Positions 26,503-58,171 of a stretch of 61,452 bases of DNA are shown here, piece after piece; the stretch's first letter is position 1; each line of letters starts with the position of its first letter. A program made the translations under genes and the position numbers. The stretch comes from a phage, in the sequence record PQ826432.1; one strand, written 5' to 3'. The notes beneath the pieces were generated by a model. It was not told the origin of the DNA and did not search any database. It worked only from the letters and a program-made list of their open reading frames with translations.

Positions 26503-26781
26503 TTACACTTCCTCCAGGAAATTGGGGCTTACAAGACCAGTATAACTGATTTCGTAAGCATCCTCTTCTTCATCGTATTCATCGCTACCCTGGCTAACAA
26601 TTACAGTATGGTTCCACTGCCCGAAAAGGATATGCAGATCAAACACCACCTTATTAACAGTAACAATAGAACCAGCTTTCAGTTCCCGAAACTCAACACC
26701 ATCGCCCGGAGTATAGCCTACAGCGCCAATATCTGTGGTTAAACGATACTCTTTACCTTCAACAATATCTTCTACACGCAT
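26503..26781 (-). CDS. hypothetical protein (92 aa)
   Basis: ORF track. Confidence 0.4.
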   Translation of the reverse strand: MRVEDIVEGKEYRLTTDIGAVGYTPGDGVEFRELKAGSIVTVNKVVFDLHILFGQWNHTVIVSQGSDEYDEEEDAYEISYTGLVSPNFLEEV

Positions 26782-27023
26782 TCTTCTTGCTCCTCTACAT
26801 ATTTAGTGACACATTTTTGAAAATTAAGAACGATATTTTTCTCTTTTACGGAGTGAAATTTAACACGTTCCGGACAGATAATCCAGCCTTCAAAACGTTG
26901 AGTAGCGTCATTCCATGCAGCACGACCATAATAGCCGCGATATGGACCTAATCGCATTGCATTTACCTCTGTAACCACATTGCTGGAGGTGCTGGGTGTA
27001 GCGCTTGCACTGGAGTCGCACAT
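26772..27023 (-). CDS. hypothetical protein (83 aa), first gene of minus-strand block
   Basis: ORF track; AGGAGG SD. Confidence 0.45.
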   Translation of the reverse strand: MCDSSASATPSTSSNVVTEVNAMRLGPYRGYYGRAAWNDATQRFEGWIICPERVKFHSVKEKNIVLNFQKCVTKYVEEQEECV

Positions 27024-27369
27024 AAATACCTCCTTGATGCTCTAAAACTGGTAAGAATTGATAGAAATTGGTTGCATCCGCTTAAAGATGGTAGCTATGG
27101 AGCAGCTACAAGACGAATTATACGTTGACGACTCAGAATTTACTACCAAAATCCATATATTTAGAAAGGATGAGCGCAATATATTCAAAAAGAAGGTAGG
27201 TGGGGTCATGTATGTAGGTGGATAGGCTATGTGATGGGTGTGTATGTCGGCAACAACATAGTTGACGAGTTAGATTTTCAAACAAGGATACTATCAGGAT
27301 GGACAGGGCACGCCCCAGCGATCCAAGTACCTGGAAAAGGATGGGTGGGGTCGCGCGGCTGGGCCTGTG

Positions 27370-31881: not shown

Positions 31882-34224
31882 ATGGAACTGTTTCCCGCTG
31901 AAATTAAAGCTTTCCCACAATGGGCTGTCGCCGATGCGGATAAAAAGCCGCTTGTATGGGACAACGATATCGGACGTTTGATGGCGGCGGACGTTACCGA
32001 TCCGGATATGCTAATGACATTTGAAGCTGCCAAAGGTTGCGCCGCTCATTTCAATAAACCTTATATCGGATTCGTGCTTACTGCGCAAGACCCGTTCACC
32101 TGCATCGACCTGGATGTGAAGAACGCAACCAATGAACCGGATCCCAAGAAGCACACGACGCCGGAACAGTTGCGTCGCTTCGAACAGATCATGACTGCGT
32201 TTGATACTTACACCGAAGTAAGTCGCTCAGGCTTGGGCGTCCACCTGTGGTTAAGAGGTAACATCGGTAAAGGTCGTCGACGTGATGGTGTCGAAGTTTA
32301 TAGTCAGGAGCGTTTTATTATCTGCACGGGCAATCCTGTCTATAACAAACCAGTTGCAGAACGTGATCATTATCTTACTATGCTTGTGAATGAGATTGAT
32401 CTTCAGCGCAAGACATATGAAATTGAACTGGTAGAAAAAGATCCGGTAGAAGACGATGCAACTATTCACCAGCGCGCACTTGAAGCGGACAACGGAGATA
32501 AGTATGCACGCCTATTCAATGGCGAATGGGTTGAAATGGGATTCCCTTCCCAGTCTGAAGCAGATCTTGCCCTTATTTCCATGTATGCATTCTACACAGA
32601 AAGTAATGAGCAATGTCGCCGTCTGTTCCGTTACAGTGCACTGGGCAAACGTGAGAAGGCTAATAAGAACAATGTTCATATTGACCGTTGTTTGCGTATG
32701 TGTCGCGGTCGCATGGAGCGTGAACGCATTGCCCAGGAAAACGTAGCGGCGCTGGCGCGGGATTACGCTGCCCGTATGCAAGCTGCACACAGTGCAATGC
32801 AGCAGGTAACGGAAATGCCTGTAACCGTCGAAACAACACAGGGGCAGACAGTAGTTGCAGAAAGCACATCCGTTGATGCAACAGCTATTGAATGGCCGCC
32901 GGGACTTGCTGGTGAGCTTGCAAAGTATATCTACAAAGCATCCGTCAGACCAGTGAAAGAAATCTCTATTGTTACCTCGCTCGGATTTATGGCTGGGGTA
33001 TGCGGGAAAGTATGGCAGATCCCGCAATCCGGTCTTAATGGTTATTTTGTCTTAATTGCTCGTTCTGGTGTTGGTAAAGAGACGTTGAACAGCGGGCTGT
33101 CTAATATAGTTAGCCAGATTCAGGACCAGTTTCCGCAGATTCATAGCTTTGTATCTTTTGATAGATGCGCTTCTGGATCTGCACTGCGTAAATCTTTTGC
33201 AGACAAACAATCTTTTATCAACCTGAATGGTGAGTTCGGTAAGATTATCAAAGCAATGGCAACGGCTCCAGCAGGCTCGCCGATGCAAAGTTTCAAGAAT
33301 GACCTTACCGATGTTTATCAAAAGTCCGGTCAGATGTCTATTGTTGGTGGTATGTCTTATTCTGATAAGGCTAATAATACTGAAGCTCAACAAGGTGTGG
33401 CATATAGCATCATGGGCGAAACAACACCGGACACATTCTTTGAAGCGTTAACCCGTGAAATGATGGAGGATGGATTCTTATCCCGTTTCCATGTTGTACG
33501 CTATGAAGGTGATCGACCACCTTTAAACAAAAATCAGCAGACTACAATGGATCAGCAGTTGAAAGACATGGTGTGCCATCTTGTTAACCACACTTTAGTA
33601 ACAATGGCAAAGCATCAGAGTATTGAAGTACAGTTTAGCCCGGATGCGGAAGCATTATGTGATCAGTTTAACGATGAATGTGATCGCAATATTAACGCAA
33701 CCAAAGACGAAGCAATCCGTCAGCCGTGGAACCGTGCTCACCTGAAGGTCTTGCGACTTTCTGCCTTGTTAGCTGTGGGTGAGAACTGGATCAATCCGGT
33801 GGTACAAACCTATCATGTGCAATGGGCTTTGGACTTTGTGCGACATGGACAGGACATTATTATGAAGGAATGGCATAGCGGTGGTATCGGGACTAACGAT
33901 GAAGCTCGTATCCGTACTATGTGTCAGGTCTGTGTGAATTATCTAACTAAAGACTGGGTGAAAGTTAAACGTGTAGATTTGCGCAAAGAAGGTATTATCA
34001 CGCGGGGTGATATTACTACGCGTCTTGCAAGTAAGTCCGCGTTTAAAAACTATCATCACGGATTATCCGCTGCAATCGAGTCTACAATCAAGGAGATGGT
34101 TGCTATGGGTGCACTTGTTCCGGTAACACGGGAGGAGACTATTAAACTGGGATTTACTGGGGCAGCTTGGCGCATTACGCAAGATGTTGAAGGAATTATG
34201 GCAAACTTAGGTGAAGAGGAATAA
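31882..34224 (+). CDS. DNA primase-helicase (primase-polymerase-like N-terminal domain plus P-loop helicase-like C-terminal domain)
   Basis: 780 aa; IDLDV and SRSGLGVHLW motifs; SGVGKET P-loop-like segment. Confidence 0.6.
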   Translation: MELFPAEIKAFPQWAVADADKKPLVWDNDIGRLMAADVTDPDMLMTFEAAKGCAAHFNKPYIGFVLTAQDPFTCIDLDVKNATNEPDPKKHTTPEQLRRFEQIMTAFDTYTEVSRSGLGVHLWLRGNIGKGRRRDGVEVYSQERFIICTGNPVYNKPVAERDHYLTMLVNEIDLQRKTYEIELVEKDPVEDDATIHQRALEADNGDKYARLFNGEWVEMGFPSQSEADLALISMYAFYTESNEQCRRLFRYSALGKREKANKNNVHIDRCLRMCRGRMERERIAQENVAALARDYAARMQAAHSAMQQVTEMPVTVETTQGQTVVAESTSVDATAIEWPPGLAGELAKYIYKASVRPVKEISIVTSLGFMAGVCGKVWQIPQSGLNGYFVLIARSGVGKETLNSGLSNIVSQIQDQFPQIHSFVSFDRCASGSALRKSFADKQSFINLNGEFGKIIKAMATAPAGSPMQSFKNDLTDVYQKSGQMSIVGGMSYSDKANNTEAQQGVAYSIMGETTPDTFFEALTREMMEDGFLSRFHVVRYEGDRPPLNKNQQTTMDQQLKDMVCHLVNHTLVTMAKHQSIEVQFSPDAEALCDQFNDECDRNINATKDEAIRQPWNRAHLKVLRLSALLAVGENWINPVVQTYHVQWALDFVRHGQDIIMKEWHSGGIGTNDEARIRTMCQVCVNYLTKDWVKVKRVDLRKEGIITRGDITTRLASKSAFKNYHHGLSAAIESTIKEMVAMGALVPVTREETIKLGFTGAAWRITQDVEGIMANLGEEE

Positions 34225-34227
34225 ATA

Positions 34228-34247
34228 AAGGGCCTTTCGGCCCTTTA
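34228..34247. terminator. bidirectional terminator
   Basis: 8-bp stem AAAGGGCC/GGCCCTTT, loop TTTC, A/T flanks on both strands. Confidence 0.6.
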
Positions 34248-34250
34248 TTG

Positions 34251-34992: not shown

Positions 34993-35319
34993 ATGACCGA
35001 TAACGTTCTAAGATTACGCGCTTATGGATTAGCAAGTAAATTTGGTTTCGGGGACGGAGATATTATTGATGGTTTTTGTGAAGACAATAATATTGATTTG
35101 CAGGAAAGAGATCAACATGATGTCTTGATCAAGCTGGTAAGGACTTATCTTTTACCGCTCATCCCTCATGTTCAAGTGTATGAAATTGGATCGCTTCATA
35201 ATCCAATTCGCTGTGAGGATGAGTTTATAAAAGAGCTTGAGCAGAGCGAGATTTACGTTGATGTAAGTATTGATCAACTTGTACAATGTATTAACGAAAC
35301 AGAAAAGGCGGACTGGTGA
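34993..35319 (+). CDS. hypothetical protein (about 108 aa)
   Basis: ORF track 34978..35319; ATG 34993 has GAGGGTGA SD. Confidence 0.45.
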   Translation: MTDNVLRLRAYGLASKFGFGDGDIIDGFCEDNNIDLQERDQHDVLIKLVRTYLLPLIPHVQVYEIGSLHNPIRCEDEFIKELEQSEIYVDVSIDQLVQCINETEKADW

Positions 35320-35624
35320 TGGGAATTGTAAATACTATCTGTGAAGCGATTTATGCGGAACTTATCCGCGAAAACGTAAATAATGAGGACAATAACCAAA
35401 TCCAAAAGATTTTGGTTGATCATAAAACTTATGCAGACATTCGTCACGACAATGCATTTCCTCATTGGTGTCATATTTATTATCCGCGTCGGGAGGATGA
35501 ATCCATTGTACTTACAATTATGGGATATGCTATTGTACCAACTTATGAAGTAGAAGGTTTTCAAATACTTTTGAAAGGCGGTATTTTAGCACCAAAAGCG
35601 GCAAAGGGAACCGCGCAAAATTGA
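35316..35624 (+). CDS. hypothetical protein (102 aa)
   Basis: ORF track. Confidence 0.45.
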   Translation: MMGIVNTICEAIYAELIRENVNNEDNNQIQKILVDHKTYADIRHDNAFPHWCHIYYPRREDESIVLTIMGYAIVPTYEVEGFQILLKGGILAPKAAKGTAQN

Positions 35625-35935
35625 AGCTTGCCATTCAAGACTGCATCCTTTAAGATAACCACAGTTAACGAGGTTTAACAATTTAACAACATTAACTTAG
35701 TGAACGATGCTTAACTCAAGCCTTTGAAAGCGGTAGCTGTACCTCCTTACAGCAACTACTTTCGCTAGGCTTCCTGGAGCGGACAGGATAAACCCGCAAA
35801 CAGATTAACGATGTGAACGATGTTTAACGCGACGGCGCCAGATGTACCAAACCGTCACCAGCCTTTGGCGAGGCTGTACAAGTAGGCCAGGATAGACGAA
35901 GACGGCAGTCAAAGTAAGCTATCCGACAATCAAGA

Positions 35936-35966
35936 GAGCCCAGGAATCCTTATGCCTGGGCTTTTT
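35936..35966 (+). terminator. rho-independent terminator
   Basis: AGCCCAGG...CCTGGGCT stem followed by TTTTTT. Confidence 0.65.
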
Positions 35967-36041
35967 TGTTCCTTGAGATCAACAGAACTTCAATATAAAA
36001 TTCTTTATGAAGTGTTTTACATTAAAGTTATGGAGACAAAC

Positions 36042-36509
36042 ATGGCAGTAAATATTCGCGCTAAAGGTCAACGCGGTGAGCGGGAAGTATGCGATTTCTT
36101 TAATGCAATTTATGCTGAAATCTACGCAGAGCTGGGGATGCAGTTACCGGAAAAACCTATTGCTCAGCGTAACCAGAATCAAAGTGCGGTCGGTGGTTGC
36201 GACATTAGCAATACGTGCCACCATGCGGTTGAAGTAAAAAACCACGCTACGCCACAAGTAAACACATGGTGGAAGCAGACTGTCCAATCCGCTAAAGAAC
36301 TTGGAAGATATCCAGTTCTGATGTATAAAATAGAACGTAAAGGATGGAAGGTTGTTCTACCGCTTAATCCAGTTGTCTTCAGTAACGGTGAGTGGAAATG
36401 GTATGAAGTTAAAGACTCCATCCGCGCGGAAATTAGTCTTGATGACTATCGCATTATTTTTAAAGCGCACGCGAAACAATGGTTAATTGATCGCGGTTCA
36501 ATTCAATAA
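36042..36509 (+). CDS. PD-(D/E)XK-type nuclease, possible Holliday-junction resolvase-like
   Basis: ORF track 35952..36509; ATG 36042 with GGAG SD; Glu, Asp and EVK residues spaced as in the fold. Confidence 0.35.
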   Translation: MAVNIRAKGQRGEREVCDFFNAIYAEIYAELGMQLPEKPIAQRNQNQSAVGGCDISNTCHHAVEVKNHATPQVNTWWKQTVQSAKELGRYPVLMYKIERKGWKVVLPLNPVVFSNGEWKWYEVKDSIRAEISLDDYRIIFKAHAKQWLIDRGSIQ

Positions 36510-57671: not shown

Positions 57672-57875
57672 TTAGAATATAGGAAAGAAAGCACCGTATG
57701 GGTATACGCTAAAAGTATTGAAAACAGGCGGTGCAAAAGCATTCACAAACACCGGAGTTGGCGCTACTGGTTGAAACGTCTTGCAATTACACGCTGCTTG
57801 AGCCAATTGCCCCTGAAGTATACCTGCTTGTGTTGCGGGACTGCCTAAACAGCAACGGTTAGTATTACCACACAT
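57672..57875 (-). CDS. small Cys-rich protein (67 aa)
   Basis: ORF track; five Cys in first 31 residues, Pro/Phe-rich C-terminus. Confidence 0.4.
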   Translation of the reverse strand: MCGNTNRCCLGSPATQAGILQGQLAQAACNCKTFQPVAPTPVFVNAFAPPVFNTFSVYPYGAFFPIF

Positions 57876-57886
57876 AGTAGACCTCC

Positions 57887-58171
57887 TTAAAGGTCGCTTT
57901 CGTTATCCTGCTTGGAACTGGGCTTTTCGGCTTCAATTATCCCAAGTACCGCAATAACTTTAACAGCAATACGCTGAGCTAGACTGATTTGCTGCTGGGT
58001 TAATTTTCCGGTCGACACCACCGTCATTAACCCGCTTAAGTTTCCAAGCGACTTGAAATCGCTGAATGCGGATTTCATAATAGTAAGTTGATCATGACCT
58101 TCATCTGCTATAACATGAGCGCGAATAGAAAGCCCTTCAACAACTTTATCAATACCTTCATTCTTCGTCAT
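57887..58171 (-). CDS. hypothetical protein (94 aa)
   Basis: ORF track. Confidence 0.4.
   Translation of the reverse strand: MTKNEGIDKVVEGLSIRAHVIADEGHDQLTIMKSAFSDFKSLGNLSGLMTVVSTGKLTQQQISLAQRIAVKVIAVLGIIEAEKPSSKQDNESDL

What the first reader, a model, noticed from the sequence alone, without database searches (positions are those of the whole stretch)
35625..35966. Long intergenic region ending in a strong intrinsic terminator: candidate small RNA
Seen: about 400 bp without a credible ORF between 35316..35624 and the next gene start at 36042, ending in a stem plus U6 terminator (35936..35966). A 15-mer GTGAACGATG(C/T)TTAAC occurs twice (about 35699 and 35811) and TTAAC recurs. The track ORF starting 35952 overlaps the terminator, and the SD-supported start is at 36042. 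Inference: a non-coding RNA or structured regulatory leader.
Basis: partly seen in the sequence, partly recalled or inferred. Interest (0 to 1): 0.5.

Follow-up and report, generated by a model that had tools for sequence, protein, structure and literature searches.

The report
Conserved structured RNA gene in Seuratvirus phages
The 417-base gap holds a separate gene for a roughly 305-nucleotide folded non-coding RNA with its own promoter and terminator; every sequenced Seuratvirus coliphage examined has it, no RNA database lists it, and its function is unknown.

Summary
The window is a Seuratvirus (Queuovirinae) coliphage. The gap 35625-36041 holds no conserved ORF. It contains a sigma70-type promoter (35628-35656), about 305 nt of transcribed sequence and an intrinsic terminator (stem 35937-44/35955-62, T6 35962-67), followed by a second promoter for the RusA-like operon.

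The element occurs in all 36 Seuratvirus records found and in metagenome relatives. It was not found in Nonagvirus JenP1 (first 50 kb of 60.8 kb), E. coli genomes, plasmids or GTDB genomes. It is better conserved than neighbouring synonymous sites: 100/92/68% against 88/61/43%.

Compensatory changes support a modular fold on the + strand:
- a long hairpin with an invariant apical CCUCCUU (anti-Shine-Dalgarno) loop;
- a compact H-type pseudoknot;
- three 3' hairpins, one with an invariant GAA/AGUA loop-E-like internal loop.

T(T/G)AAC repeats lie in two unstructured segments.

Rfam has no match. My own leads of a CRISPR-repeat mimic and a preQ1 riboswitch failed their tests.

Best reading: a new trans-acting phage small RNA. 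How it works (blocking ribosome-binding sites and/or binding a protein) is inferred, not shown. A transcribed replication origin remains the main rival.

The parts
35628..35656 (+). Promoter P1 of the RNA gene: TTGCCA, 17-nt spacer, TAAGAT. The predicted start is about 35663/35664.
   Evidence: 9/12 match to consensus. STP-SP5 has TTGACA-17-TAATAT and yong3 has TTGCAA-17-TAAGAT with a diverged spacer. It is 100% identical across the E. coli clade.
35663..35718 (+). 5' segment predicted to be unstructured. It carries six T(T/G)AAC motifs at 8-10 nt spacing (35665-35715) and the first copy of the 25-nt repeat (35691-35715).
   Evidence: The cluster is unique in the window, against a maximum of 4 in 200 shuffles. 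Fold z = -0.2. yong3 keeps a periodic NT[TGA]AAC array although the rest of the sequence diverged.
35719..35771 (+). Hairpin H1: four stacked helices with an apical loop CCUCCU(U) at 35742-35747. ACCUCCUUA at 35741-35749 equals the 3' end of E. coli 16S rRNA (the anti-Shine-Dalgarno sequence).
   Evidence: 12 of 20 pairs show changes on both sides, 98% of cells are paired, and 0/500 shuffles reach this (that alignment was fitted to the model). Three lineages fold alike around the same loop with different stems.
35773..35797 (+). Compact H-type pseudoknot. P1 is CCUG 35773-76 with CAGG 35784-87. P2 is GCGG 35779-82 with CCGC 35794-97. L1 is GA, L2 is A, L3 is AUAAAC 35788-93.
   Evidence: P2 changes to GUGG/CCAC in STP-SP5. 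Metagenome variant L027 carries a second copy, CCAG-GA-CUGU-A-CUGG-AUAAAC-ACAG, with P1 and P2 both changed but complementary and all loops kept.
35798..35830 (+). Unstructured linker holding the second 25-nt repeat (35804-35828) and tandem (T/G)(T/G)AACGATG 9-mers. This is the least conserved part of the RNA.
   Evidence: 76-82% identity where the rest is 100%. Dru_SM1 has an extra 9-mer copy. Fold z = +1.4.
35831..35856 (+). Hairpin H3: GACGG/CCGUC with a 16-nt loop CGCCAGAUGUACCAAA, identical in all lineages apart from one U-to-A change in yong3 and mgL030.
   Evidence: The C-G pair becomes G-C in yong3. yong3 also has a second H3-like hairpin with loop CCAGAUUCUUACCAAAG.
35859..35876 (+). 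Hairpin H4: CAGCCU/AGGCUG with loop UUGGCG, which is complementary to CGCCAG in the H3 loop (a possible loop-loop contact).
   Evidence: Two pairs have compensatory changes and there is one G.U on the + strand. The loop complementarity never varies, so it is untested (helix 2).
35890..35924 (+). Hairpin H5: outer stem GGAUAG/CUAUCC, inner hairpin GAC-GGCA-GUC, and an internal loop with invariant GAA (35898-900) opposite AGUA (35913-16). This is a loop-E / sarcin-ricin (bulged-G) sequence signature.
   Evidence: The inner stem has three versions: GAC/GUC, GUC/GAC and GCU/AGU. The outer stem and the pairs flanking the loop covary, while GAAG and AAGUA are invariant in all lineages.
35937..35967 (+). 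Intrinsic terminator: 8-bp G+C-rich stem, 10-nt loop, U6.
   Evidence: -21.9 kcal/mol, z = -4.6. The SA80RD clade (GCGCAGCG/CGUUGCGC + U6-7) and yong3 (AGCCCAC/GUGGGCU + U6) have different stems followed by a U-tract.
35973..36001 (+). Promoter P2 for the downstream RusA-like/dUTPase operon. It is not part of the RNA and marks the RNA gene as a separate unit.
   Evidence: TTGAGA-17-TAAAAT, 10/12. yong3 has TTGCAA-18-TATAAT at the same place. It is annotated as a promoter in SA80RD and SA126VB.

Best explanation
Window ~35663-35967 (+) is a stand-alone gene for a ~305-nt structured non-coding RNA. Host sigma70 RNA polymerase transcribes it from P1, and an intrinsic terminator ends it.

The RNA is built of modules:
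- a single-stranded 5' segment with periodic U(U/G)AAC motifs;
- a long hairpin presenting an invariant CCUCCUU loop;
- a small H-type pseudoknot;
- a second single-stranded repeat linker;
- a 3' domain of three hairpins: one with an invariant 16-nt loop, one with a loop complementary to it, and one with a loop-E-like GAA/AGUA internal loop;
- the terminator hairpin with its U-tail.

I think it most likely acts in trans during infection as a regulatory or protein-binding RNA. The exposed anti-Shine-Dalgarno loop would pair with strong ribosome-binding sites and block translation. The invariant loops and the loop-E-like motif of the 3' domain would bind a host or phage protein.

Shown by comparison: the gene boundaries, purifying selection, the strand, the secondary structure and the absence of coding. 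Inferred only: that it is expressed, that it acts in trans, and any target or partner.
For: - Distribution. All 35 BLAST-detectable Seuratvirus records have it. Hafnia phage yong3 has it by nhmmer and covariance model, 89 bits. Nine metagenome loci have it.
- Conservation. Against GottfriedDienst, STP-SP5 and yong3, the 3' domain is 100/92/68% identical, while RusA third-codon positions are 88/61/43%. The adjacent upstream protein is only ~53% identical.
- Promoter and terminator. Both are kept although their non-essential bases diverged.
- Covariation, 3' domain. 98% of cells are paired, 8 pairs changed on both sides, 0/500 shuffles reach this, and slid controls give 26-41% paired.
- Covariation, H1 plus pseudoknot. 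98.6% paired, 13 pairs changed on both sides, 0/500 shuffles. RNAalifold on a plain MAFFT alignment finds 17 such pairs.
- Strand. G.U pairs occur on the + strand, where the - strand would have A.C mismatches.
- H1 loop. CCUCCUU is invariant across three lineages whose stems differ.
- Repeat segments. They fold no better than shuffles, so they are probably accessible.
- Modularity. Modules are gained, lost or swapped as units in L027, yong3 and the SA80RD clade.
- No coding. No ORF is conserved, and STP-SP5 reads the invariant core in a different frame.
Against: - No expression data exist, and I found no paper on it.
- No specific target was found. The phage genome has no extended complementarity to the H1 or H3 loops beyond chance. 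Host targets could not be screened.
- A 9-mer shared with 16S rRNA is common by chance for a 305-nt sequence. Its weight rests on where it sits and on its conservation, which I noticed after the fact.
- yong3 lacks H1 and the pseudoknot, so the anti-SD loop cannot be the function of the whole family.
- The 3' domain is not unusually stable thermodynamically (z = -0.9).
- The periodic T(T/G)AAC array could work at the DNA level.
Confidence: 0.6

Rival explanations
1. Transcribed origin of replication. Transcription from P1 opens the A+T-rich repeat region, and the displaced + strand shows an array of T(T/G)AAC / GTGAAC sites to the phage primase-polymerase/helicase. The RNA would be a by-product, an R-loop former or a primer.
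For: - The repeat cluster is unique in the genome and lies about 1.4 kb downstream of the primase/helicase gene, inside the replication module.
- The primase carries an NrS-1-type helix-bundle domain. NrS-1 PrimPol recognises 5'-TTTGGTTA-3' and 5'-GTGA-3' on the template (PMC8718748), which resemble the GGTTTAAC and GTGAAC repeats here.
- Providencia phage PSTCR4 has a GT[TAG]AAC array in the syntenic gap without the homologous RNA.
Against: - An origin does not explain the conserved terminator, or the covarying hairpins with G.U pairs and invariant loops 150-300 nt downstream.
- The repeat linker 35798-35830 is the least conserved part and varies in copy number.
- The A/U-rich RNA would make a weak R-loop.
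- The cumulative GC-skew minimum lies at ~29-30 kb, not 35.6 kb. This is weak evidence, because skew there follows gene orientation.
- The recognition sequence of this particular primase is unknown.
Confidence: 0.13
2. Cis-acting leader of the lambda PR'-tR' type. P1 constantly makes a short terminated transcript, and a phage antiterminator lets polymerase read through the terminator into the RusA-like/dUTPase operon. The RNA folds would serve pausing or factor loading.
For: - The layout is promoter, ~300-nt untranslated RNA, strong terminator, then a long co-oriented operon.
- The AACGAT hexamer inside the TGAACGATG repeats equals, as I recall it, the sigma70 pause-inducing element of lambda PR' (own knowledge, not tested).
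- In Nonagvirus JenP1 a terminator sits 10 nt before the RusA ribosome-binding site.
Against: - A conserved sigma70 promoter P2 lies between the terminator and the operon in both the E. coli clade and yong3.
- No conserved anti-terminator pairing exists. The only candidate (35767-77 with 35940-50) weakens in STP-SP5 and is absent in yong3.
- No Q-like gene was identified, although I did not search for one systematically.
- The invariant loop sequences point to a function of the RNA product itself.
Confidence: 0.1
3. RNA anti-CRISPR (solitary-repeat mimic). The segment 35768-35796, GGCUUCCUGGAGCGGACAGGAUAAACCCG, would imitate the E. coli type I-E repeat (hairpin followed by AUAAACCG) and trap Cas6e/Cascade. 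This was my own lead.
For: - It shares GGAUAAACC after a hairpin, and lies downstream of a promoter in a phage intergenic region. Racr genes are described in that kind of location (PMC10651486).
Against: - The local alignment score to the I-E repeat is 10, below the best random score of 10-14 in 20 shuffled windows and below the window's own top hits of 12.
- It is far from the SRUFinder thresholds of at least 90% identity and coverage.
- No Rfam CRISPR-DR match appears even at E<=10 on 51 nt.
- The 'handle' varies (AUAAACCCGC, AUAAACCCAC, AUAAACACAG) in step with the hairpin loop, as a pseudoknot predicts and a repeat mimic does not.
Confidence: 0.02
4. Riboswitch-like sensor. The A-rich-loop pseudoknot or the 3' domain would bind a metabolite such as a 7-deazaguanine precursor made by these phages, and control termination.
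For: - The pseudoknot has the same H-type topology as preQ1-I aptamers, with an A-rich L3.
- The phage belongs to the Queuovirinae, and the Nonagvirus relative JenP1 carries annotated queuosine-precursor genes.
- A terminator follows the 3' domain.
Against: - No preQ1 or other riboswitch model matches, even at E<=10 on 51 nt.
- The ligand-pairing C of L2 is an A here.
- yong3 lacks the pseudoknot.
- There is no conserved alternative to the terminator, and P2 makes control by read-through unnecessary.
Confidence: 0.03
5. A small protein is encoded in the gap: the 21-aa + strand ORF 35820..35885, or the 53-71-aa - strand ORF annotated in some relatives.
For: - Several deposited genomes annotate a - strand 'hypothetical protein' here.
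- The 21-aa ORF is intact in the E. coli clade.
Against: - The - strand ORF is split into 27 + 35 aa in this window.
- The + strand ORF is read in a different frame in STP-SP5 and yong3 across the invariant nucleotides. Indels of 1, 2 and 3 nt occur, and there is no SD in front of it.
- The substitutions are compensatory in stems and do not fall at third-codon positions.
Confidence: 0.02

Closest known systems
Stand-alone phage-encoded small RNAs with their own promoter and intrinsic terminator (for example lambda OOP, P22 sar, and prophage sRNAs such as DicF and StxS)
   Same: It is a short untranslated transcription unit on a phage genome, bounded by a sigma70 promoter and a Rho-independent terminator, and is presumed to act in trans.
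   Different: There is no sequence or model similarity to any of them (Rfam). At ~305 nt it is several times longer. It is multi-domain, encoded by a virulent siphovirus, and not antisense to a neighbouring gene.
P1/P7 C4 and P4 CI antisense RNAs; C-rich-loop sRNAs of Gram-positives (RNAIII, RsaE)
   Same: They have a hairpin loop complementary to the Shine-Dalgarno region of target mRNAs, which is the mechanism proposed for the CCUCCUU loop of H1.
   Different: No target has been identified here. The loop equals the generic anti-SD rather than a gene-specific sequence. The Rfam scans returned no phage antisense-RNA family. The resemblance is one of mechanism and comes from my own knowledge.
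Loop E / sarcin-ricin (bulged-G) motif of rRNAs
   Same: GAA lies opposite AGUA, flanked by Watson-Crick pairs. These bases are invariant while the flanking pairs covary.
   Different: It is identified by sequence signature only. The strand order and surrounding hairpin differ from the 23S sarcin-ricin loop. No 3D evidence exists.
Protein-sequestering or scaffold RNAs of similar size (CsrB/C, 6S, GlmY/Z)
   Same: It is 200-370 nt long and modular, with repeated short motifs in accessible segments and module copy number varying between relatives.
   Different: The GGA motifs here sit in stems, not loops. There is no 6S-like rod. None of these Rfam models match.
lambda PR'-tR' short transcript (6S RNA) / StxS
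   Same: A constitutive-looking promoter and a ~200-300 nt transcript ended by a strong terminator lie upstream of a long operon.
   Different: A second conserved promoter follows the terminator. The RNA shows strong structural covariation and invariant loops. No Q-type factor is known in these phages.

Membership tests
Rho-independent (intrinsic) terminator | G+C-rich hairpin immediately followed by a U-tract on the transcribed strand | tested here: met
   8-bp stem with 6 G-C pairs plus U6 at 35937-35967, -21.9 kcal/mol, z = -4.6. Relatives have three different stems, each followed by U6-7.
Sigma70 promoter | -35 and -10 hexamers with a 16-18 nt spacer, kept across relatives | tested here: met
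   TTGCCA-17-TAAGAT in the window, TTGACA-17-TAATAT in STP-SP5 and TTGCAA-17-TAAGAT in yong3, with a diverged spacer. Activity was not measured.
Any Rfam 15 family (4227 models, including phage sRNAs, CRISPR-DR, riboswitches, ribozymes and tmRNA) | Covariance-model score at or above the family's gathering threshold | tested here: not met
   0 hits at gathering score on the whole window. On 511 nt only 4 chance-level hits appear, E = 3.7-8.6. On the 51-nt pseudoknot there are 0 hits at E<=10. ARAGORN finds no tRNA or tmRNA.
RNA anti-CRISPR / solitary repeat unit (Racr, SRUFinder definition) | At least 90% identity and at least 90% coverage to a known CRISPR repeat, bit score at least 41.1 (PMC10651486) | tested here: not met
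   Tested against the E. coli I-E repeat only. The local score is 10, against 10-14 for the best hit in shuffled windows. The repeat sequence came from my own knowledge, and the 17,823-repeat database was not available.
preQ1-I riboswitch | Match to the Rfam preQ1 models; a cytosine at the end of L2 that pairs with the ligand; an A-rich L3 | tested here: not met
   No model hit. L2 is a single A. Only the H-type topology and the A-rich L3 (AUAAAC) are shared.
H-type pseudoknot (structural class) | Loop bases of a hairpin pair with the sequence 3' of it, supported by covariation in both stems | tested here: met
   P2 is GCGG/CCGC and becomes GUGG/CCAC in STP-SP5. The paralogous copy in L027 has CCAG/CUGG and CUGU/ACAG with L1 = GA, L2 = A and L3 = AUAAAC unchanged. 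P1 never varies among orthologues.
Loop E / sarcin-ricin bulged-G motif | 5'-AGUA-3' opposite 5'-GAA-3', flanked by canonical pairs; characteristic non-canonical pairs in 3D | tested here: inconclusive
   The sequence signature and its invariance are met, and the flanking pairs covary. The 3D geometry cannot be tested with these tools.
Hfq-dependent base-pairing sRNA | Terminator hairpin with a U-tail, an accessible seed, binding to Hfq, and identified mRNA targets | not testable with these tools
   The terminator with U6 and an accessible conserved loop are present. Hfq binding and host targets could not be examined. No phage target stands out above chance.
Iteron-type or transcribed replication origin | Unique cluster of direct repeats next to an A+T-rich unwinding region, bound by the initiator; replication starts there | tested here: inconclusive
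   A unique repeat cluster is present. GC skew does not switch here. Initiator binding and initiation mapping are not testable.
Protein-coding gene | An ORF kept in frame across relatives, with an RBS | tested here: not met
   No ORF is shared by the window clade, STP-SP5, mgL030 and yong3. The reading frame differs over invariant nucleotides.

The most novel reading that the evidence does not exclude
The element is a dual-purpose module of a kind not yet described. It would be both the phage's transcription-activated replication start and the gene for a folded RNA. P1 transcription would expose the + strand array of primase-polymerase recognition-like sites (GGTTTAAC, GTGAAC). The released modular RNA would act on the host translation apparatus through its 16S-3'-end-like loop, its pseudoknot and its loop-E-like module, for example by occupying strong Shine-Dalgarno sites or by decoying a factor or nuclease that recognises rRNA features. 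It might assemble as a dimer through the G+C palindrome kept between H4 and H5 (GGCC, CCGG, ACCGGU or GCUAGC in different lineages).
Probability: 0.1. Interest if true: 0.85.

Novelty: new member of a known kind. Interest (0 to 1): 0.6.

Why it matters
Few non-coding RNAs are known in virulent coliphages (own knowledge). This one is long, modular and under strong purifying selection.

It is carried by phages that grow on E. coli K-12 and are widely distributed: CAjan, Seurat and the BASEL phages Bas21-23. Deletion, loop mutants, Northern blots and RNA-RNA or RNA-protein capture are therefore straightforward.

Several public genomes currently annotate a spurious 'hypothetical protein' on the opposite strand, or a false 5'-extended RusA start across the terminator. 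These annotations could be corrected.

The family gives a well-defined covariance model for Rfam. It also offers a test case for how phages might use an anti-Shine-Dalgarno loop, a minimal pseudoknot and a loop-E-like module. If the repeat array proves to be the origin, it would be, as far as I know, the first origin located for the Queuovirinae.

Tried and rejected
- CRISPR I-E repeat mimic. Similarity is below random, there is no CRISPR-DR hit, and the 'handle' covaries with the loop.
- preQ1-type riboswitch. No model hit, and the specificity base is wrong.
- CsrA sponge. There are three CAGGA(U/A) motifs, but the GGA lies in stems and they are absent in yong3 (own reading).
- rRNA mimicry beyond the anti-SD. 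Shared 7-9-mers with 16S and 23S rRNA are at chance level.
- tRNA, tmRNA and anticodon-loop mimic. ARAGORN is negative, and the UGUAC repeats are not in 7-nt loops.
- Wider family of the pseudoknot module. An IMG/VR scan for CCWGGA-N4-ACWGGATAAAC gave 16 non-Seuratvirus hits. This is about the number I estimate for chance, and none has P2 complementarity.
- Distant homologues. Covariance models R1 and R2 find nothing in Nonagvirus JenP1 (first 50 kb of 60.8 kb) or in 5-kb syntenic loci of Kpn2-P2, PSTCR4 and EC151. blastn finds nothing in E. coli genomes or plasmids.
- Core 20-mer scans. Metagenome and GTDB scans give only Seuratvirus-like contigs plus isolated hits with no flanking similarity, about the number I estimate for chance.
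- Targets in the phage genome. There is no extended complementarity to the H1 loop, the H3 loop or the repeat. Two small genes with a perfect AAGGAGGT SD have unknown function.
- Origin from GC skew. The switch is at ~29 kb.
- Literature. Three searches found nothing on this RNA. One was spoiled by 'Seurat', the software name.
Full report
**What the window is.** BLAST of 35300-36100 against phage genomes hits 35 records, all classified or recognisable as Seuratvirus (Queuovirinae). They include slur01 (95%), CAjan, Seurat and the BASEL phages GottfriedDienst, KurtStettler and WildeMaa. The finding lies in the replication and nucleotide-metabolism module. Upstream are an NrS-1-type primase-polymerase/helicase (31882-34224) and several small genes of unknown function. 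Downstream are a PD-(D/E)XK 'RusA-like' nuclease (36042-36509) and a dUTPase.

**Checking the observation.** The gap is 417 nt (35625-36041).
- The terminator is real. AGCCCAGG (35937-44) pairs with CCTGGGCT (55-62) around a 10-nt loop and is followed by T6 (35962-67). It folds at -21.9 kcal/mol, z = -4.6. The consensus scan missed it only because its loop limit is 8 nt.
- The repeated 16-mer lies at 35700-15 and 35813-28. It is the core of a 25-nt direct repeat at 35691-715 and 35804-828.
- There are six T[TG]AAC within 60 nt at 35665-35715. This is the only such cluster in the 61-kb window, and 200 shuffles never exceeded four.
- The ORF starting at 35952 would run through the terminator. 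Relatives annotate the 36042 start with an RBS.
- No tRNA or tmRNA and no Rfam family matches.

**Evidence that it is a gene.** Immediately after the upstream stop codon lies TTGCCA-17-TAAGAT (35628-56). The divergent Salmonella phage STP-SP5 has TTGACA-17-TAATAT there. Hafnia phage yong3 has TTGCAA-17-TAAGAT with a quite different spacer. That pattern is what a working sigma70 promoter predicts.

The terminator exists in three sequence versions, each a G+C-rich hairpin followed by a run of six or seven U. Directly after it comes a second promoter, TTGAGA-17-TAAAAT at 35973-36001. yong3 has TTGCAA-18-TATAAT in the same place. The RNA is therefore a separate unit and not simply the leader of the next operon.

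**Selection.** I used third-codon positions of the adjacent RusA-like gene as a rough neutral yardstick. They are 88%, 61% and 43% identical to GottfriedDienst, STP-SP5 and yong3. The 3' domain of the RNA is 100%, 92% and 68% identical. In the E. coli clade the promoter, 5' segment, 3' domain and terminator are 100% identical, and H1 and the pseudoknot 96-100%. The protein encoded just upstream is only ~53% identical between this window and most relatives. Only the linker 35798-35830 is relaxed (76-82%), and it varies in repeat copy number.

**It is not coding.** No ORF on either strand is shared by the four lineages. The - strand ORF annotated in some genomes is broken in this window. The 21-codon + strand ORF is read in a different frame in STP-SP5 and yong3 across nucleotides that are invariant.

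**Structure.** Twenty distinct homologues were aligned. RNAalifold on the plain MAFFT alignment finds 52 pairs, 17 of them with changes on both sides.
- 3' domain. For the structure I specified, 98% of cells pair and 8 pairs have double changes. 0 of 500 column shuffles reach this, and slid controls give 26-41% paired.
- H1 plus pseudoknot. On a model-fitted alignment that leans towards the structure, 98.6% pair and 13 pairs have double changes.
- Strand. G.U pairs appear on the + strand, which agrees with the promoter and terminator orientation.

**The parts.**
1. A 5' segment (35663-718) is predicted to be unstructured (z = -0.2) and carries the T(T/G)AAC array.
2. H1 (35719-71) is a long hairpin with apical loop CCUCCU(U). 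Three lineages keep the loop with three different apical stems (CUGUA/UUACAG, UAUAA/UUAUG, GCAG/CUGC) and three middle stems (GAAAG/CUUUC, GCAAU/AUUGC, UGUGG/CCACA). ACCUCCUUA equals the last nine bases of E. coli 16S rRNA.
3. A 25-nt H-type pseudoknot lies at 35773-97. Its second stem covaries in STP-SP5. A paralogous copy in metagenome variant L027 has both stems changed and all three loops kept.
4. A second repeat linker follows.
5. H3 has a 16-nt loop identical in all lineages apart from one U-to-A change in yong3 and mgL030.
6. The loop of H4, UUGGCG, is complementary to CGCCAG in the H3 loop. Both are invariant, so covariation cannot test this contact.
7. H5 has invariant GAA opposite AGUA, flanked by covarying pairs. 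This is the sequence signature of a loop-E / sarcin-ricin motif, as I know it from the literature.
8. The terminator closes the RNA.

**Modularity.**
- yong3 lacks H1 and the pseudoknot, and has a second H3-like hairpin instead.
- L027 has an extra [long hairpin + pseudoknot] unit.
- Five phages of the SA80RD clade carry a diverged H5, terminator and P2 next to an inserted HNH homing endonuclease.

**Distribution.** The element was found only in Seuratvirus.
- Covariance models of both halves find nothing in Nonagvirus JenP1 (first 50 kb of 60.8 kb), or in the syntenic loci of Klebsiella phage Kpn2-P2, Providencia phage PSTCR4 and Enterobacter phage EC151.
- There are no blastn matches in 5,426 E. 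coli genomes or in PLSDB plasmids.
- Exact-pattern scans of IMG/VR, metagenomes and GTDB genomes return Seuratvirus-like contigs. They also return isolated hits without flanking similarity, about the number I estimate for chance.

**How it may work.** The gene, its strand, its fold and the selection on it are well supported. The function is inferred.

I favour a trans-acting RNA for three reasons. It is a self-contained transcription unit. Its most conserved bases sit in exposed loops. Its modules are gained and lost as units.

The one loop whose sequence suggests a partner is CCUCCUU, the complement of a strong Shine-Dalgarno sequence. Pairing with such sites would block ribosome binding, as hairpin-loop antisense RNAs do in P1/P7. 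The invariant H3 and H4 loops and the loop-E-like motif look like a protein-binding or tertiary-folded core. This 3' core is the part that even the most divergent relative, yong3, keeps.

There are several points against a simple anti-SD model. No specific target emerges in the phage genome. Host targets could not be screened. yong3 lacks the loop. I noticed the 16S identity after the fact, and 9-mers shared with 16S are common by chance.

**Rivals.**
- A transcribed replication origin is the serious one. The repeat array is unique and sits beside the primase gene. NrS-1 PrimPol, which shares this primase's helix-bundle domain, recognises TTTGGTTA and GTGA on its template, and these resemble GGTTTAAC and GTGAAC here. 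PSTCR4 has a similar array in the syntenic gap. But an origin does not explain the conserved terminator or the covarying, G.U-containing hairpins downstream. GC skew also gives no support.
- A lambda PR'-tR'-like leader is weakened by promoter P2.
- My own leads of a CRISPR I-E repeat mimic and a preQ1-like riboswitch both failed direct tests. The pseudoknot covariation contradicts the first.

**Novelty and verdict.** I found no Rfam family and no paper describing this RNA. It is a new family within a known kind, the phage-encoded non-coding RNAs. It is unusual in being long, modular and carried by virulent coliphages that are easy to work with. What the RNA does remains open and is directly testable.

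Noticed in passing
window 35952-36041: The mechanical ORF start at 35952 (also annotated in phiG7 and SD04 as a 185-aa protein) runs through the RNA terminator and promoter P2. The RBS-supported start is 36042, giving 155 aa, as annotated in Seurat and slur01.
   Followed up: yes
window 35697-35912, - strand; L001 1890-2051: Several deposited Seuratvirus genomes annotate a 53-aa 'hypothetical protein' (a 53-71-aa ORF) on the strand opposite the RNA. It is split in this window and not conserved in divergent relatives, so it is probably a false gene call.
   Followed up: yes
L009 2220-2702, L031 794-, L034 785- (SA80RD, Dru_SM1, SA126VB): An HNH homing endonuclease is inserted just downstream of the RNA gene in five phages. 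In the same phages the last hairpin, the terminator and promoter P2 are replaced by a diverged version of the same shape. This looks like a co-conversion tract from homing.
   Followed up: partly
L027 about 1135-1240 (metagenome contig ERZ1026901 NODE-154): A ~100-nt insertion in the RNA gene adds a second unit of long hairpin plus pseudoknot. Both pseudoknot stems are changed but complementary, and all loops are conserved.
   Followed up: yes
L016 1860-2500 (Providencia phage PSTCR4, Craquatrovirus): The syntenic 640-nt gap has seven GT[TAG]AA-type motifs (1935-2045), two promoter-like sites (2089-2165) and a strong terminator (2301-2320). It has no homology to the Seuratvirus RNA. It may be an analogous non-coding RNA or origin region.
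   Followed up: partly
L014 2315-2500 (Nonagvirus JenP1): The shorter syntenic gap has GTAAAC/GTTAAC motifs and a terminator (GGGGGTAC..GTACCCCC + T-run) ending about 10 nt before the RusA-like ribosome-binding site, with no room for a promoter in between.
   Followed up: no
window 34224-34249: A perfect 11-bp hairpin (AATAAAGGGCC-GAAA-GGCCCTTTATT) lies between the primase/helicase gene and a convergent 74-aa gene. It looks like a bidirectional terminator and is annotated as such in Seurat.
   Followed up: no
window 35885-35888 and aligned positions in relatives: The linker between H4 and H5 holds a G+C palindrome in every lineage, with different sequence: GGCC, CCGG, ACCGGU or GCUAGC. This is a weak hint that the RNA could pair with itself between molecules. 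I estimate the chance of such palindromes as not small.
   Followed up: partly
window 27024-27037 (-) and 57876-57890 (-): Only two genes in the window have a perfect 8-nt AAGGAGGT ribosome-binding site: the 83-aa ORF 26772-27023 and the 67-aa ORF 57672-57875. Both belong to PHROG families of unknown function. They are the best in-genome matches to the anti-SD loop, but not above chance.
   Followed up: partly
H24/H26 records (MH230177 'Aeromonas phage SD04', KY982929 'Cronobacter phage CSP1'): These phages are about 95-97% identical to the window across this locus, although they are labelled as infecting other genera. Either the host range is broad or the host labels deserve a check.
   Followed up: no
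window 35703-35708, 35807-35812, 35816-35821: AACGAT occurs three times inside the (T/G)(T/G)AACGATG repeats. As I recall it, this equals the -10-like sigma70 pause-inducing element of lambda PR'. Possible promoter-distal pausing was not tested.
   Followed up: no
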